A stretch of 4,197 nt of DNA from a virus (IMGVR_UViG_3300029250_000151:1-4197), one strand, 5' to 3'. Numbered from the stretch's first letter, positions 1-4,197 are shown. Program-made: numbers and translations. The notes: a model not told the origin generated them from the letters alone.

Positions 1-2264
1 GCGGCGTCTGCAATTTTTGCCTCCGAAAACCAGAACTCAAACTGCACCGTCGGGTCATACACCGCAAGACGCGGTACCGCCGTTATCTGAAAATACCCCG
101 GCGTCAGTTCAACACCGGCAGGCGCTGCCGGTGCGTTAATCCGGAACGTGGTGGTGGCGGGTTCGCCCTGCTGGCCATAGCTGTTAATCGCCCTGACCGT
201 CAGGGTGTATTCCCCGGGAGGCAGGCCACTGAAACGGTGCTCCGTATCGGCAGTGATGGCGGTGGTCAGCAGGCGGCTGTTCTCACCGCTTCCACTGGTC
301 AGGCGCAGACTGAAGCGCACGCCCTTCACCACCCTCGGCGTGTCCCATTTCGCCAGCGCCAGATACTGGCTGTCAGCCGCGCTCACCTCCACCGTCAGGT
401 GCTGTACTGCCGGTGGGATAACGCTGTTCAGGGTGCCTGACTGCGGCTCAAAGCGGGCTCCGTTATCCACAATGGCTTCTTTTTCCGGTACGTGCTGCAC
501 CGCCGTGATGGCAAAGGTGCCGTCCGTGTTTTCCCGGATGGCCACACAGCGGAACAGGCGACGGCGCAGTGACGGCAGGGAGAGTCCCCACACCCCGTAT
601 GTCTCCACACCATCAGGCAGGGTACTGACCTGTATCCGGTCCGGCGCGGGGTGTGCGGTGATGTCCACACTCACCGGCTTACCGCTGCCGTTAATCAGGT
701 TCACCGTCGATGCACCTGTCCCCGGAAGTGTCACTTCACGGTCCAGCGTCAGGGTGCGGGTGGCAGCATCAATGGACAGGACACGTCCGCCGGTCAGGGT
801 TCCGGCATAGTCGTTATCACAGATTTCAATGATGTCACCGGGTGTGTGCCGCAGCCCCTGAGACCCGAGTGTGAAATCCACCGTCTGCGTTTCCAGCAGT
901 TCGGTCTTTATCACCCACAGCCCGGCACGGTGGGCCTGACCGCGGCTGGTACAGCCGAACGCGTCCATCTTCAGCAGGTTGCGTCCGTAGCGCAGTATGG
1001 CTTCCGGGTCTTCCACCAGTTCCGTGGAGGTCTGCCAGCCGTTCTGCGGGTCGGTGTAATTCACCTCCACCGCCGTGTGCCGGTCCTTCAGGGCACTGAA
1101 GCTGTAGCGGAACCCCACGCCGTTATCATCCACCACCACATCGCTGTTGGTGTACGGCCACACCACATCCGACGTGCGGTCCTGAACGAACGTCAGCGTC
1201 TGACCGTTCCATACCGGCATACAGCGCATCGCAGAGCAGAAATCACTGAGAACGTCCCACGCCTTACGCTGTTGTGCCAGGTACGCATTAAAGGTCATCC
1301 GCGGCTCTGTGCCCCCGAAACCATCCGGGACCGTCTGGTCGCAGTACTGCCCGATGGCATACAGCGCCCACTTGTCCACATCCGCCGCTCCCAGGCGTTT
1401 TCCCATGCCGTAGCGCGGGTGAGTCAGCATGTCCCACAGACACCAGGCCGGGTTGTTGCTGTATGCCGGTTTCAGACTGCCGTCCCAGATACCGCTGTAC
1501 GTGCGTTTTTCCGGGTCATAGTTTGACGGCACCTGGATGATGCGACCGCGGATATGGTAGTTCACCGTCATCTGCTGGCCACCAAACTGCTCCGCATCCA
1601 CCTGCATCCCCACAATGGCCGTGTTCGGGTAGCACTGTTTCACATCGATGATTTCGGTGTATGACGACCACAGCGTTCTGTTCTGCAGCTGGTCCGTGGT
1701 GCTGTCCGCCGTCTCCCTGACCATCCGGATGTTAAAGGGGCGGGGAGGCAGATTATCCAGAATCACCGACGCCAGGAACTGCGAGGTGGTCTTGCCGTTA
1801 ATGGTGACATCCTTTTCCGTCATCCATTTACCACCACGCTCAAGCTGAATCAGCAGGCGGACAGACGTCGGATTACGGTCACCCTTTGACGTGGTCTCCA
1901 CCAGTGACTGCACCCCGAAGGTCACCCGCAGGCGGTCAATGTTCGCTGACGTAATGGTGCGTGTCACCGGTTTTGCCTTCGTCACCTCCACACCCAGTAC
2001 AGTTTCAGCTCCGGAGGACTCAAAGCCTTCCGGTGGTGTCTGCTCCTGCTCCCCGGCACGCCAGACGGCGGTCACACCGTGTATCACGGGATTACCGTCC
2101 GTGTCCGTCAGCGGGGTTTTGTTCACCAGAATACTCTGCAGTCCCTTCACCGGACCTTCCACCGGTCCCTCACCAATGGCATCAATCACACTCATCATCT
2201 GCGTGGATTTGAGATTATCCTTCGCCTCACGCGGTGTGTGCCCCTTGCCGCCCCCTTTACCCAC
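1..2264 (-). CDS. J: Host specificity protein J (tail tip / central tail fibre protein), N-terminal ~754 codons; 3' end lies beyond the window start
   Basis: Reverse-strand translation from GTG at 2264 reads [39 protein letters not shown]... and continues without a stop to position 3 (...[30 protein letters not shown]...[27 protein letters not shown]...[19 protein letters not shown]). This resembles lambda gpJ as I recall it (N-terminus [20 protein letters not shown]). A Shine-Dalgarno-like GGAGAGGGGGACAGA sits immediately upstream of the GTG, and there is no in-frame ATG upstream. Absent from the ORF track because its stop is outside the window. Frame was spot-checked at 1431..1442. Confidence 0.9.
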
Positions 2265-2273
2265 TCTGTCCCC
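2265..2273. repeat. 9-bp direct repeat TCTGTCCCC, left copy (forms the J ribosome-binding region on the minus strand, GGGGACAGA)
   Basis: Exact 9-mer TCTGTCCCC at 2265..2273 and again at 2471..2479, bracketing the AT-rich block of the I-J spacer. Confidence 0.4.
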
Positions 2274-2307
2274 CTCTCCTGTCTGATGTCTGAATCTGTT
2301 TATGCCC

Positions 2308-2339
2308 AAAAAACAACAGGCACCCCGGAGGATGCCTGT
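2308..2339 (-). terminator. Rho-independent terminator oriented for minus-strand transcripts, ~45 nt upstream of the J start
   Basis: Minus-strand RNA: ACAGGCA-UCCUCCGGGG-UGCCUGU. The 7-bp perfect stem (2316..2322 / 2333..2339) can extend to ~10 bp with a UCCG tetraloop, and is followed by UGUUUUUUGGG (2305..2315). On the plus strand the same hairpin is preceded by an A-run and not followed by a T-run, so it is unidirectional. Confidence 0.5.
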
Positions 2340-2376
2340 ATCATGACTGAATAAAAATTCTGAATATCTTCACATT

Positions 2377-2404
2377 TTCACAAACTGACTGTGGCGCGTA
2401 TAAT
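2377..2404 (+). promoter_or_regulatory. Candidate sigma70-type promoter: -35 TTCACA (2377..2382), 16-bp spacer, -10 TATAAT (2399..2404); predicted start near 2411
   Basis: Perfect consensus -10 hexamer and a 5/6 match to TTGACA at an acceptable 16-bp spacing, with an AT-rich tract upstream (ATAAAAATTCTGAATATC). Plus strand, so directed against the minus-strand tail operon. Confidence 0.4.
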
Positions 2405-2413
2405 TTCGCTGCG

Positions 2414-2467
2414 TTAGTGTTTTTTTTGCCCGAGTAACAAAAACAACTCCTTAACATTAATCTTCAT
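2414..2467 (-). CDS. Hypothetical 17-aa mini-ORF (MKINVKELFLLLGQKKH), mutually exclusive alternative to the plus-strand sRNA
   Basis: ATG at 2467..2465 is preceded by GGGGACAGACAA, a second copy of the J-type Shine-Dalgarno region. The ORF contains a Leu/Phe run (TTG TTT TTG TTA CTC) and an A8 tract, with stop TAA at 2416..2414. Very short, so it could easily be fortuitous. Confidence 0.12.
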   Translation of the reverse strand: MKINVKELFLLLGQKKH

Positions 2468-2470
2468 TTG

Positions 2471-2479
2471 TCTGTCCCC
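2471..2479. repeat. 9-bp direct repeat TCTGTCCCC, right copy
   Basis: Exact copy of 2265..2273; it overlaps the left arm of the 2477..2501 hairpin. Confidence 0.4.
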
Positions 2480-2509
2480 GCAGCTCCGCGATCACTGCGG
2501 GATTTTTTT
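2477..2509 (+). terminator. Rho-independent terminator oriented for plus-strand transcripts, abutting the I stop codon
   Basis: CCCGCAG (2477..2483) pairs with CTGCGGG (2495..2501), with an 11-nt loop CTCCGCGATCA, then A and TTTTTTT (2503..2509). On the minus strand the hairpin is preceded by the A-run, so it is not a terminator for the I transcript. Confidence 0.5.
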
Positions 2510-2514
2510 ATGTT

Positions 2515-3195
2515 TTATCCCTGTCGACCAATAACCACCACCTTTCCGCCCCCGCCTTCATCACGGGTGCTGATGTCCTGAGAGATACGTCGTGAACCAA
2601 CCAGCATTTCACCGTAGGGCACCGGCATCGGGTTGCCCTGGGCAATCATGTTGTCCAGTGAGGAAAAGTACGTGTTCTGTCTGCCGTTATCCGTTGCGCG
2701 GTAATCCGGTGTTTTTGCCTTCGGGGCCAGCATCTGTGCCACACCACCCAGAATCATGCTGGCTCCAAGTGAAAACAGCATCGTGGTGGCAGAAAAACCA
2801 CCGGCTGCCAGGGCTGAACCCCATAACGCCATTGATGCCCCGGCAGTGAAGAAAGAGCCCACGATGGCTGCCGCCCCCAGCACAATCTGCAGTCCACCCT
2901 TTCCGGCCCCGGCCAGTCGCGGCACAATGTGGATGACCGTTCCCTCACCCAGTGGTTCGTGAAGACGGGCGTACACCGCCTCCGGTGCCGTGTCATCACC
3001 GGCAATACGTATCTGGTACCAGCCTTCGTTCATCTGACGGCGAAAGCCCGGCATCTGCATCGACAGGGCGCGGATGGCTTCCGCTGCCGTGTTCACATAC
3101 AGGCTGAGGCGGCGGCCAAATCGTTGTAAATTCCCGTGAAGGCAGATGCGTGCCAGTGGCGGTGACGCCAGACAGAATGCGTTCGTCGTTGCCAT
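2515..3195 (-). CDS. I: Tail assembly protein I (lambda gpI family; ubiquitin-like N-terminal region plus Gly/Ala-rich hydrophobic C-terminal region)
   Basis: 226-aa ORF MATTNAFCLASPPLARICLHGNLQRFGRRL...QNTYFSSLDNMIAQGNPMPVPYGEML... resembles lambda gpI (223 aa) as recalled. ATG at 3195..3193, TAA at 2517..2515. The start lies 103 nt inside the 3' end of K, the same overlap I recall for lambda K/I. Confidence 0.9.
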   Translation of the reverse strand: MATTNAFCLASPPLARICLHGNLQRFGRRLSLYVNTAAEAIRALSMQMPGFRRQMNEGWYQIRIAGDDTAPEAVYARLHEPLGEGTVIHIVPRLAGAGKGGLQIVLGAAAIVGSFFTAGASMALWGSALAAGGFSATTMLFSLGASMILGGVAQMLAPKAKTPDYRATDNGRQNTYFSSLDNMIAQGNPMPVPYGEMLVGSRRISQDISTRDEGGGGKVVVIGRQG

Positions 3196-3836
3196 TTTTC
3201 GGAATACCTCTCTCGTTTGCTCAGTTGTTCAGGAATATGGTGCAGCAGCTCGCCATCACCACAGTAAATGGCGGCATGATTCGGCACCGATGAACCAAAA
3301 CAGCACAGCAGCACATCGCCCGGTTGTGCTGATGACAACGGCACCTGATACAGCCCTGTGGCCTCCAGATTATCCAGGTACAGGTTCTGGCCGTTGCGCC
3401 ACCAGTCATCCTCGCGATGAAAATCCGGCATTTCAGTCCCCGCCAGATGATAAGCATCCCGGAACAGCGTGTAACAGTCCGTCACCCCGTGCGCAAAGCG
3501 CCGTCCTGTCAGATGTGGCACACAGCGGAATTTGTGAATGTCACCCCGGCAGACCAGCCACCAGGGCAGGGCACTTTTTATCTGCAGCCGCCGGTCAGCC
3601 TCGCTCAGCCAGGGCAGCCCACCGGGATGACTGTGGACCAGTGCCACAATCTCCCCCTGCATCTCTGCCCGCAGCCAGTCTTCCGGGGCAATACGAAAAT
3701 ATGCCTCAGGCTCTGCAGAGATATTCACACAAGGGATATACCGCTCCCCCTCCGGCGTGCTTATCACGAAGCCGCACGACTCCGCAGGCGCACACCGCCG
3801 GGCATGCGCCAGAATCGCTGATTCAGTCTGTGTCAT
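3093..3836 (-). CDS. K: Tail assembly protein K (lambda gpK family; JAMM/MPN metalloprotease-like motif plus NlpC/P60-like region), 247 aa
   Basis: Translation from ATG 3836..3834 is MTQTESAILAHARRCAPAESCGFVISTPEGER... It contains HSHPGGLPWLSEAD, an exact HxH-x7-S-x2-D JAMM motif (~3594..3635), and a downstream Cys/His region (DCYTLF...NHAAIY...LLHH) consistent with NlpC/P60. Stop TGA at 3095..3093. The start is 10 nt after the L stop. The ORF-track extension to a TTG at 4097 runs through L in another frame and is rejected. Confidence 0.88.
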   Translation of the reverse strand: MTQTESAILAHARRCAPAESCGFVISTPEGERYIPCVNISAEPEAYFRIAPEDWLRAEMQGEIVALVHSHPGGLPWLSEADRRLQIKSALPWWLVCRGDIHKFRCVPHLTGRRFAHGVTDCYTLFRDAYHLAGTEMPDFHREDDWWRNGQNLYLDNLEATGLYQVPLSSAQPGDVLLCCFGSSVPNHAAIYCGDGELLHHIPEQLSKRERYSEKWQRRTHSVWRHRHWHASAFTGIYNDLAAASACM

Positions 3837-3846
3837 AAAACAGGAT

Positions 3847-4197
3847 TTACTGCGAAAGTTTATTGATGGAAAGGAAACCGCCAAAATTGCCGACATTCCT
3901 GCGCAGTTCACACCCGCGCATGCACTTGCTGCATCTGTCCTTACGGATATCCGTGGTGGGGTTGTCGAACTCATCCGCCACCGCAGGACCGTTATACCCG
4001 CATTCATCTCCCCGGTAATCCCACATACAGGTGTTCGCCAGCATGATGCGACCGGGAAACAGCGCACCGTCCGTCTCGGTCGGTGTCGCCAGCACAAACG
4101 AGGCCGTCATGGCTGTCAGCTCCGACATCTGCTCCACCACCCAGCGGTCACTCAGCTCCTGCTCCGGGTCCGCCTCCGGATTGCCCGCAACGAAATT
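3847..4197 (-). CDS. L: Minor tail protein L (lambda gpL family), C-terminal 116 codons; 5' end lies beyond the window end
   Basis: In-frame translation from the window edge: NFVAGNPEADPEQELSDRWVVEQMSELTAMTASFVLATPTETDGALFPGRIMLANTCMWDYRGDECGYNGP...CSKCMRGCELRRNVGNFGGFLSINKLSQ, resembling the lambda gpL C-terminus including its Cys cluster. Stop TAA at 3849..3847. The 97-aa ORF-track call is an internal GTG start of this gene. Confidence 0.9.
   Translation of the reverse strand, partial: NFVAGNPEADPEQELSDRWVVEQMSELTAMTASFVLATPTETDGALFPGRIMLANTCMWDYRGDECGYNGPAVADEFDNPTTDIRKDRCSKCMRGCELRRNVGNFGGFLSINKLSQ

What the first reader, a model, noticed from the sequence alone, without database searches (positions are those of the whole stretch)
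2265..2514. I-J intergenic spacer is ~190 bp longer than in lambda and looks like an inserted accessory element
The gap between the I stop (2515) and the J start (2264) is 250 bp, against roughly 60 bp in lambda as I recall it. The surrounding L-K-I-J arrangement is otherwise lambda-like, including the 10-nt L-K gap and the 103-nt K/I overlap. The spacer is visibly AT-rich against GC-rich flanking genes and carries its own promoter-like and terminator-like signals on both strands. This is the usual signature of a phage accessory insertion ('moron'), but here without an obvious protein gene, which points to an RNA or regulatory function.
Basis: partly seen in the sequence, partly recalled or inferred. 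Interest (0 to 1): 0.7.

Follow-up and report, generated by a model that had tools for sequence, protein, structure and literature searches.

The report
Prophage small RNA gene PasB

Summary
I stops at 2515 and J starts (GTG) at 2264, so the spacer is 250 bp against exactly 60 bp in lambda. Its GC is 42% against about 60% in the flanks.

The spacer has two modules. Window 2265-2350 is the functional counterpart of lambda's whole spacer: a sense-strand terminator-like hairpin plus the J ribosome-binding site. Window 2351-2514 is a self-contained plus-strand unit: a near-consensus sigma-70 promoter, an RNA of about 83-99 nt, and an intrinsic terminator ending 5 nt from the I stop codon.

That RNA is PasB. 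It is 81/83 identical to the validated EPEC E2348/69 sRNA, the published northern probe matches exactly, and E2348/69 has the same I-J location and orientation. A divergent allele at the same site in EHEC Sakai is EcOnc22/23/24, a link neither PasB paper makes.

Re-analysis of the published RIL-seq partners places the seed at window 2447-2472. It pairs with start-codon or SD regions of napF, yijD, caiF, tolC and ydbJ. The window allele carries two substitutions inside that seed.

Interest is low to moderate.

The parts
2265..2514 (.). I-J intergenic spacer, 250 bp, made of two modules
   Evidence: ORFs and start/stop codons. Alignment of 38 distinct spacers shows the J-proximal part is exchangeable and the I-proximal part is shared.
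2351..2514 (+). PasB module (the moron): promoter, sRNA gene and terminator; GC 0.38
   Evidence: Shared sequence begins at 2351 in both spacer classes. Many E. coli hits start at query position 87, which is 2351. Found in 147 phage records.
2359..2374 (+). Candidate CRP-like site TCTGA-N6-TCACA; a lead only
   Evidence: One mismatch from TGTGA-N6-TCACA. Not significant alone (0.23 expected). Kept in 38/40 distinct spacers with variation only in N6.
2377..2404 (+). Sigma-70 promoter: -35 TTCACA (2377-2382), 16-nt spacer, -10 TATAAT (2399-2404)
   Evidence: 11/12 match to consensus. Aligned in E2348/69 and most alleles.
2411..2509 (+). Predicted primary PasB transcript, 99 nt, if the TATAAT promoter is used
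   Evidence: Inference from the promoter position. The leader GCGUUA is conserved in the alleles.
2427..2509 (+). Equivalent of the published 83-nt PasB (E2348/69 NC_011601 1466343..1466261); 81/83 identical
   Evidence: Table S6 of PMC8550237. Alignment A1. Exact probe match at 2482-2504 on the minus strand.
2436..2447 (+). A-rich AAC-AAA-AAC-AAC block ((ARN)4-like; possible Hfq distal-face site); variable between alleles
   Evidence: Read from the sequence. High entropy among alleles. No complementarity to RIL-seq partners.
2447..2472 (+). Inferred seed CUCCUUAACAUUAAUCUUCAUUUGUC, with invariant core UAAUCUUC (2458-2465). Window-specific substitutions at 2453 (C to A) and 2459 (G to A) relative to E2348/69.
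   Evidence: Only this segment is enriched for complementarity to 13 RIL-seq partners (z to -5.75). Allele-swap energies. Entropy profile.
2477..2509 (+). Intrinsic terminator: stem CCCGCAG/CTGCGGG, 11-nt loop, U7 tail; ends 5 nt before the I stop codon
   Evidence: It is the only consensus structure in 25 alleles, with one G-C to A-U compensatory change.
2306..2339 (-). Sense-strand (late-operon) terminator-like hairpin ACAGGCAUCC-UCCG-GGGUGCCUGU plus U-run, about 40 nt upstream of the J start
   Evidence: 98.7% of cells paired in 15 variants, C-G/U-A/U.G at one pair, and G.U pairs valid only on the minus strand. Lambda has an analogous hairpin in its 60-bp spacer.
2271..2280 (-). J ribosome-binding site AGGAGAGGGG, ahead of the GTG start at 2264
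   Evidence: Read from the sequence.

Best explanation
Window 2351-2514 is a moron inserted at the I-J junction of a lambdoid prophage. It encodes an allele of PasB, a small RNA of about 83-99 nt. PasB is transcribed from its own sigma-70 promoter on the strand opposite the tail genes and ends at an intrinsic terminator next to the I stop codon.

Shown elsewhere for the nearly identical E2348/69 allele: the RNA is abundant in the lysogen while the flanking tail genes are silent, it is strongly destabilised without Hfq, and it is ligated on Hfq to about 37 partner RNAs.

Inferred here: it acts in trans as a canonical Hfq-dependent base-pairing sRNA. The U-tailed terminator, and perhaps the A-rich (ARN)-like block, hold it on Hfq. 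The unstructured segment 2447-2472 pairs with Shine-Dalgarno or start-codon regions of host and accessory mRNAs (napF, yijD, caiF, tolC, ydbJ in E2348/69), most likely blocking translation.

The two seed substitutions in the window's allele probably shift its target set relative to E2348/69 PasB.

The remaining 86 bp (2265-2350) is the ordinary I-J junction: a sense-strand hairpin/terminator plus the J ribosome-binding site, as in lambda.
For: Identity:
- The published PasB northern probe matches exactly at 2482-2504 on the minus strand.
- The window is 81/83 identical to the annotated PasB.
- E2348/69 has the same placement: I ends at 1466255, PasB is 1466343..1466261 on the opposite strand, and J starts at 1466496.

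Self-contained unit:
- Promoter with an 11/12 match, and a terminator.
- The terminator is the only conserved structure and carries a compensatory change.

Independent expression and Hfq dependence (literature):
- baseMean is about 5 for I, about 15 for J and 482-1082 for PasB.
- The delta-hfq log2 fold change is -6.8 and -2.4 in the two conditions.
- 37 RIL-seq interactions.
- The EHEC alleles EcOnc22-24 are about 85 nt and destabilised in delta-hfq.

Insertion:
- Lambda's spacer is 60 bp with no homology to the block.
- The unit has GC 0.38 against 0.60 in the flanks.

Seed:
- Complementarity of 13 RIL-seq partners is enriched only for the PasB segment equivalent to 2447-2472 (z to -5.75).
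- There are 9-11-nt perfect matches at translation start regions (p 0.003-0.037).
- The partners pair best with their own allele: -21.3 against -14.3 to -18.5 kcal/mol for other alleles.
Against: - No expression data exist for this particular prophage or allele.
- The 5' end is unresolved. The strong promoter predicts about 2411, while the published coverage-based 5' end corresponds to 2427.
- No PasB target has been validated by reporter or compensatory mutation in any strain. The original authors found no common target motif for PasB.
- My seed inference uses mononucleotide shuffles and only 13 selected partners.
- Repression, rather than activation or decay, is assumed from the position of the sites.
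- Rfam 15 has no model that recognises the RNA, so family membership rests on sequence identity and synteny.
Confidence: 0.85

Rival explanations
1. PasB acts mainly in cis as an antisense RNA. It is perfectly complementary to the I-J intergenic part of the late polycistronic mRNA. Alone or together with convergent transcription, it could trigger RNase III cleavage or transcriptional interference and so tune J (tail-tip) expression or block leaky tail-gene expression in lysogens.
For: The gene lies wholly inside the late operon on the opposite strand, 5 nt from the I stop and about 150 nt from the J start. The position is strictly conserved in every locus examined.
Against: The RNA does not overlap the J ribosome-binding site or either coding sequence. 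It is expressed when the late operon is silent. The RIL-seq tables list many trans partners and no I-J sense-strand RNA. The seed flanks vary between alleles while the locus stays the same, which is expected for trans targeting.
Confidence: 0.15
2. PasB is an anti-sRNA (sponge) like AgvB or AsxR. Its C/A-rich block AACAAAAACAAC would mimic mRNA targets of a core sRNA such as GcvB and titrate it.
For: This was my first hypothesis, from the C/A-rich block. AgvB-type anti-sRNAs are prophage-encoded and carry ARN motifs.
Against: AgvB and AsxR lie at the PR' moron site, not at I-J. Rfam models RF02702 and RF02703 give no hit. The A-rich block varies between alleles and shows no excess complementarity to partners. 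The partners I read are overwhelmingly mRNAs, with a single sRNA-region pair (pasA IGR) in the activating sheet.
Confidence: 0.05
3. The spacer encodes a small protein: the 38-aa minus-strand ORF 2457..2341, which ends just before the minus-strand terminator, or the 22-aa plus-strand ORF 2286..2354.
For: The ORFs exist in the window. The 38-aa ORF is followed by a terminator-like hairpin.
Against: The 38-aa ORF is not conserved. In E2348/69 the same ATG is followed directly by TGA, and T-run length (6-9) shifts the frame among close relatives. There is no convincing ribosome-binding site. The 22-aa ORF has no promoter or SD, and it persists only where the underlying DNA is nearly identical.
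Confidence: 0.02
4. In this particular prophage the block is an inert remnant. The promoter or RNA is no longer functional and the spacer merely provides the J upstream region.
For: Decay does occur in some relatives: an IS3-like insertion splits the promoter in L135, and a sodC insertion replaces it in L029 and L090.
Against: The window keeps an 11/12 promoter, an intact terminator with a U7 tail, and the invariant seed core.
Confidence: 0.05

Closest known systems
PasB (pathogenicity-associated sRNA B) of EPEC O127:H6 E2348/69, prophage PP6 (Pearl Mizrahi et al. 2021, PMC8550237; Zhu, Shabalina and Storz 2026, bioRxiv 10.64898/2026.05.13.724894)
   Same: 81/83 nt identical. Exact northern-probe site. 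Same I-J spacer location and antisense orientation. Same promoter, terminator and U7 tail.
   Different: Two substitutions, at published positions 27 (C to A) and 33 (G to A), both inside the seed inferred here. One extra T in the upstream T-run. The J-proximal part of the spacer differs at its J end.
EcOnc22/EcOnc23/EcOnc24 of EHEC O157:H7 Sakai prophages Sp15/Sp14/Sp11 (Tree et al. 2014, PMC4104026)
   Same: Same I-J junction and strand. Same conserved upstream block, leader, UAAUCUUC core and CCCGCAG/CTGCGGG-U7 terminator. About 85 nt and Hfq-dependent.
   Different: Divergent allele, with a different A-rich block and seed flanks (CUCCAUAACGUUAAUCUUCAUCGUUCUCU). The -35/-10 regions are weaker matches. 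Neither PasB paper lists them as homologues.
AgvB/AsxR prophage anti-sRNAs (Rfam RF02702/RF02703)
   Same: Prophage-encoded, Hfq-binding, short, terminator-ended RNAs with ARN-type motifs, carried as morons in lambdoid prophages.
   Different: They sit at a different locus (downstream of PR'/stx) and share no sequence similarity with PasB. They act by sponging core sRNAs, whereas the PasB partners are mRNAs.
Classical lambdoid morons such as prophage sodC, lom and bor
   Same: Extra DNA between conserved late genes, with its own promoter and terminator, lower GC, and expression from the repressed prophage. sodC morons occupy this very junction in some relatives.
   Different: The product is a regulatory RNA, not a protein.

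Membership tests
PasB sRNA family | Sequence homology to the validated 83-nt E2348/69 PasB | tested here: met
   81/83 identity in alignment A1. The published probe matches exactly.
PasB sRNA family | Location in the I-J spacer of a lambdoid tail operon, antisense to the tail genes | tested here: met
   Same arrangement in E2348/69, Sakai Sp14/Sp15 and about 80 IMG/VR junctions.
PasB sRNA family | [quoted passage not shown] | tested here: met
   7-bp stem plus U7. Conserved, with one compensatory change, in 25 alleles.
PasB sRNA family | Expressed as a discrete Hfq-dependent RNA | not testable with these tools
   Shown only for the E2348/69 allele (northern, delta-hfq log2FC -6.8/-2.4) and the Sakai alleles.
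Phage moron | Extra DNA between conserved phage genes that is absent from close relatives | tested here: met
   Lambda has a 60-bp spacer without the block. 147 phage records carry it.
Phage moron | Own promoter and terminator, and deviant base composition | tested here: met
   GC 0.38 against 0.60.
Phage moron | Expressed from the repressed prophage | not testable with these tools
   For E2348/69, PasB baseMean is 482-1082 against 5-15 for I and J. Not known for this prophage.
AgvB/AsxR anti-sRNA family | Match to the conserved ~42-nt 3' region / Rfam RF02702 or RF02703 | tested here: not met
   cmscan at E<=1 gave 0 hits in the window. The sequences are unrelated.
AgvB/AsxR anti-sRNA family | Location at the PR' moron site downstream of Q | tested here: not met
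   The window is the L-K-I-J tail region.
Class II-like Hfq sRNA (distal-face ARN motif plus U-tail) | (ARN)n repeat upstream of the seed, and a terminator U-tail | tested here: inconclusive
   AAC-AAA-AAC-AAC at 2436-2447, and A-rich blocks in all alleles. Face-specific Hfq binding cannot be tested here.
CRP-dependent promoter | CRP site at a class I or class II position, plus cAMP-CRP dependence | tested here: inconclusive
   TCTGA-N6-TCACA at 2359-2374, not significant alone but conserved. Its centre is -44.5 from a start at 2411 or -60.5 from a start at 2427. Higher PasB in static LB than in DMEM is compatible but not specific.

The most novel reading that the evidence does not exclude
The I-J junction RNA is one seed-variable family: PasB in EPEC, EcOnc22-24 in EHEC, and at least four or five further allele groups in Stx and other lambdoid phages.

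A fixed scaffold is kept: the upstream CRP-like block, leader, U-run, UAAUCUUC core and terminator. The seed flanks and the A-rich block are swapped.

Each incoming prophage would then plug a differently targeted, possibly catabolite-controlled, regulator into the host Hfq network. The same RNA might also act in cis on the tail operon it lies in.
Probability: 0.3. Interest if true: 0.5.

Novelty: already known. Interest (0 to 1): 0.25.

Why it matters
The finding itself is a rediscovery. PasB was reported in 2021 and surveyed in 2026, so its value is mainly correct annotation, because Rfam and PGAP leave this spacer blank.

Three by-products may be useful to people working on prophage sRNAs.

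1. PasB and the EHEC sRNAs EcOnc22-24 are alleles of one locus. This unifies two literatures and raises the number of phage genomes carrying the family from about 24 to about 147.

2. There is now a concrete, testable seed (window 2447-2472), with start-codon or SD sites in napF, yijD, caiF, tolC and ydbJ. No common target motif had been found for PasB before.

3. Natural alleles differ inside the seed, which predicts prophage-specific regulons.

Tried and rejected
1. AgvB anti-GcvB sponge. This was my first guess from the C/A-rich block. I rejected it because AgvB maps to the PR' site, its sequence is unrelated, and Rfam gives no hit.

2. Rfam cmscan at E<=1 found nothing, so PasB has no Rfam family.

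3. Coding potential. No ORF is conserved.

4. A conserved 5' structure. The single-sequence fold pairs the U-run with the A-rich block, but RNAalifold on 25 alleles supports only the terminator.

5. Unrestricted RNAduplex of the whole PasB against its targets gave bloated, uninformative duplexes. I replaced it with 14-nt sliding windows and longest-match tests.

6. My dinucleotide-shuffle routine hung, so the controls are mononucleotide shuffles plus antisense strands and other alleles.

7. The genome-contig scan gave little. Apart from E. albertii, the close hits were contaminant contigs, and the distant I homologues could not be paired with a J start.

8. A minus-strand promoter for a second RNA ending at the 2339..2316 hairpin. 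The scan found none, and the RIL-seq tables record no sense-strand intergenic RNA.

9. The EcOnc22 coordinates (older Sakai assembly) did not line up with the PasB-like gene. The published probe resolved this.

Full report
**1. Observation**

The window carries lambda-like tail genes on the minus strand: L (stop at 3847-3849), K (3836..3093), I (3195..2515, TAA stop) and J (GTG at 2264, running off the left end). The J start is supported by the upstream AGGAGAGGGG at 2280..2271. It also aligns with the annotated ATG of gpJ in E. coli E2348/69.

The I-J spacer is therefore 2265..2514, or 250 bp. In lambda (J02459), I ends at 15444 and J starts at 15505, a 60-bp gap. Lambda's K/I overlap is 103 nt, as in the window.

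Spacer GC is 0.42 against 0.59-0.60 for I and J.

The consensus scan found three signals:
- a plus-strand promoter, TTCACA-16-TATAAT, at 2377-2404 (11/12 match);
- a plus-strand terminator ending in U7 at 2503-2509;
- a minus-strand terminator-like hairpin at 2339..2316.

It found no minus-strand promoter.

**2. What it is**

Rfam 15 gave no hit at E<=1. My first idea, the anti-GcvB sponge AgvB, was wrong, because AgvB lies at the PR' moron site.

A 2026 preprint on prophage 'Pas' sRNAs led me to the EPEC RIL-seq paper (PMC8550237). Its Table S6 lists PasB as follows:
- NC_011601 minus strand, 1466343..1466261, 83 nt;
- prophage PP6, between E2348C_1436 and E2348C_1437;
- northern probe AATCCCGCAGTGATCGCGGAGCT.

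That probe occurs once in the window, with no mismatch, at 2482-2504 on the minus strand. The RNA is therefore on the plus strand.

In E2348/69, I ends at 1466255 and J starts at 1466496, so PasB lies inside a 240-bp I-J spacer, antisense to both genes.

Alignment transfers the published RNA to window 2427..2509 with 81/83 identity. The promoter, the terminator and the distance to the I stop codon are all conserved. The window thus carries an allele of PasB.

**3. Anatomy of the spacer**

I sampled I-J junctions through the I protein (80 junctions, 38 distinct spacers).

All carry the same plus-strand unit next to I, starting at the equivalent of window 2351. The J-proximal part is one of at least two unrelated cassettes:
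- the window type, giving spacers of 234-254 bp;
- a second type, giving spacers of 336-344 bp.

Lambda's 60-bp spacer consists of a sense-strand hairpin with a T-run (ACCGCC-TGCG-GGCGGT-TTTGTCATTT) followed by the J ribosome-binding site. The window's 2265-2350 has the same layout.

The window's minus-strand hairpin behaves as an RNA on the late-mRNA strand. In 15 variants, 98.7% of cells are paired. One pair varies as C-G, U-A and U.G. Other pairs are G.U, which would be mismatches on the plus strand.

So the J-proximal 86 bp corresponds to the whole lambda spacer. The inserted DNA is the 164-bp PasB module (2351-2514, GC 0.38).

The same junction holds a Cu,Zn-superoxide-dismutase (sodC-like) gene upstream of PasB in four loci. 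It is a recurrent moron site.

**4. Distribution and the link to EHEC**

The spacer matches 1799 of 5426 complete E. coli genomes, with up to 10 copies per genome.

The PasB module is in 147 of 50,697 phage records. Only 19 are at least 90% identical, which is about the 24 that the 2026 preprint found by blastn. The other 127 are divergent alleles at 60-80% identity, mostly in Stx1a, Stx2a and Stx2c phages.

A motif scan of IMG/VR gave 44 distinct transcribed alleles.

In EHEC Sakai, the I-J spacers of Sp15 and Sp14 hold such a divergent allele. Tree et al. (2014) list EcOnc22/23/24 in Sp15, Sp14 and Sp11 as about 85 nt and destabilised in delta-hfq. Their probe (GGGAGAGAACGATGAAGATTAAC...) matches the minus strand exactly over the seed and pre-terminator part of that allele.

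EcOnc22-24 and PasB are therefore alleles of one locus. Table S6 of the 2021 paper gives no EHEC homologue for PasB, and the 2026 preprint never mentions EcOnc.

**5. How it works**

Shown in the literature for the E2348/69 allele:
- In the lysogen, I and J have baseMean of about 5 and about 15, while PasB reads 482 (DMEM) and 1082 (overnight static LB).
- PasB drops by log2 6.8 and 2.4 in delta-hfq.
- It has 37 RIL-seq interactions, mostly as the second RNA in chimeras, as expected for an sRNA.

Shown here:
- Across 25 alleles, the only consensus structure is the 7-bp terminator stem, with one G-C to A-U compensatory change. The 5' two-thirds is unstructured.
- I read the PasB rows of Table S3 and fetched the 13 best-supported partner fragments.
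- I then scored 14-nt PasB windows against them. Only windows starting at positions 35-49 (98-nt numbering) are enriched over shuffles. The minimum is z = -5.75 at CCUUCACAUUGAUC, with a second dip of -4.9 at UGAUCUUCAUUUGU.
- The leader, U-run and A-rich block are not enriched. The antisense strands of the targets are 4-5 kcal/mol weaker.

Perfect complementarity in individual partners (p 0.003-0.037 against shuffles):

| Partner | Match length | Position of the site |
|---|---|---|
| napF | 11 nt | over the GTG start |
| fabR/yijD junction | 11 nt | over the yijD GAAGGA Shine-Dalgarno |
| tolC | 10 nt | over the ATG |
| caiF | 9 nt | codons 1-4 |
| ydbJ | 9 nt | about 20 nt upstream of the ATG |

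The inferred seed corresponds to window 2447-2472. The mechanism I commit to is Hfq-assisted pairing at translation-initiation regions, giving translational repression. The pairing is computed here. The repression is inferred.

**6. Allelic variation**

Entropy along the RNA is low for the U-run, the core UAAUCUUC, both terminator arms and the U-tail. It is high for the A-rich block, both seed flanks and the terminator loop.

The window's two differences from E2348/69 (2453 C to A, 2459 G to A) lie inside the seed.

Mean predicted pairing energy of the 13 E2348/69 partners, by allele:

| Seed allele | Mean energy (kcal/mol) |
|---|---|
| E2348/69 | -21.3 |
| Window | -16.3 |
| Commonest IMG/VR allele | -14.3 |
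| Sakai | -16.8 |
| Further allele group | -18.5 |

tolC, E2348C_2648 and ffh are unaffected by the window's substitutions. This supports the seed assignment and predicts allele-specific target sets.

**7. Unresolved points**

The near-consensus promoter predicts a start near 2411, giving a 99-nt RNA. The published 5' end, based on coverage and an approximate northern size, corresponds to 2427. A second possible -10 (TAGTGT, 2415-2420; TAnnnT in all alleles) would fit 2427.

The most conserved block of the whole spacer is TCTGA-N6-TCACA (2359-2374), one mismatch from the CRP half-sites. It is not significant by itself (0.23 expected). It is kept in 38 of 40 distinct spacers, with changes only in the N6. 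Its centre would be -60.5 from a start at 2427 or -44.5 from a start at 2411. Higher PasB in static LB than in DMEM is compatible with CRP control but not specific to it.

A cis-antisense role on the late operon cannot be excluded, but nothing I found supports it.

**8. Verdict**

It is an allele of a described sRNA, so its novelty is 'already known'.

The added value is modest:
- the PasB/EcOnc22-24 unification;
- a wider family than previously reported;
- a testable seed with start-site targets;
- the modular reading of the I-J junction.

Noticed in passing
window 2306-2339 (minus strand); lambda L094 757-790: A sense-strand terminator-like hairpin sits between I and J, just upstream of the J ribosome-binding site. 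It occurs in the window, in the unrelated second spacer cassette and in lambda itself. In the window type it shows C-G/U-A/U.G covariation and G.U pairs that are valid only on the late-mRNA strand. Its role (attenuator read through by Q-modified polymerase, or an mRNA-end stabiliser) is unknown.
   Followed up: partly
window 2359-2374: TCTGA-N6-TCACA, one mismatch from the CRP consensus half-sites, is the most conserved block of the spacer (38/40 distinct spacers, variation only in the N6). The match alone is not significant, and its position fits class I only if transcription starts at about 2427.
   Followed up: partly
window 2399-2428: There are two candidate starts for PasB. TATAAT (2399-2404) predicts about 2411. 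The published 5' end maps to 2427, which would fit a weak -10, TAGTGT (2415-2420). In the longer form, the U8 run (2420-2427) can pair with the A-rich block.
   Followed up: partly
L029, L090 (851-bp spacers) and L015, L017 (903-bp spacers): A sodC-like Cu,Zn superoxide dismutase gene is inserted at the same I-J junction, on the PasB strand and directly upstream of PasB. In L029 and L090 it replaces the PasB promoter, so PasB would sit downstream of the sodC terminator. In L017 the promoter is kept.
   Followed up: partly
L003, L073 and about 45 other IMG/VR loci (336-344-bp spacers): The commonest spacer class has a different, unrelated J-proximal cassette. It contains a hairpin, AACCCCGGTATC-AGCA-GATACCGGGGTT, flanked by A-rich and T-rich runs (bidirectional terminator-like). 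I did not examine what else it encodes.
   Followed up: no
L135 (IMG/VR 2534681940_000025): An IS3-family element (MTKNTRFSPEVRQRAVRMV...) is inserted right after the -35 region, destroying the PasB promoter in that copy.
   Followed up: no
L082 (Streptomyces flavalbus), L084 (Parendozoicomonas haliclonae), L090 (Clostridiales MAG): Short contigs in species-representative genomes of unrelated taxa carry E. coli lambdoid tail genes at 91-98% protein identity. This is almost certainly contamination or mis-binning.
   Followed up: no
L001 1675-2256 versus window 2515-3195: RefSeq/PGAP annotates gene I of E2348/69 with a late start (a 4-nt overlap with K). The lambda-like start gives the 103-nt K/I overlap seen in lambda, in the window and in the EcoCyc-derived annotation used by the RIL-seq paper.
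   Followed up: no
window 2262-2264: J starts with GTG in the window, where E2348/69 has ATG at the aligned position.
   Followed up: no
L214, L218, L219 (E2348/69 partner fragments): Several PasB RIL-seq fragments annotated to the 3' end of one gene (fabR, E2348C_2648, hflX) lie at or just upstream of the start of the next gene in the operon (yijD, E2348C_RS14200; hflK is my inference). The regulated gene may therefore be the downstream one.
   Followed up: partly
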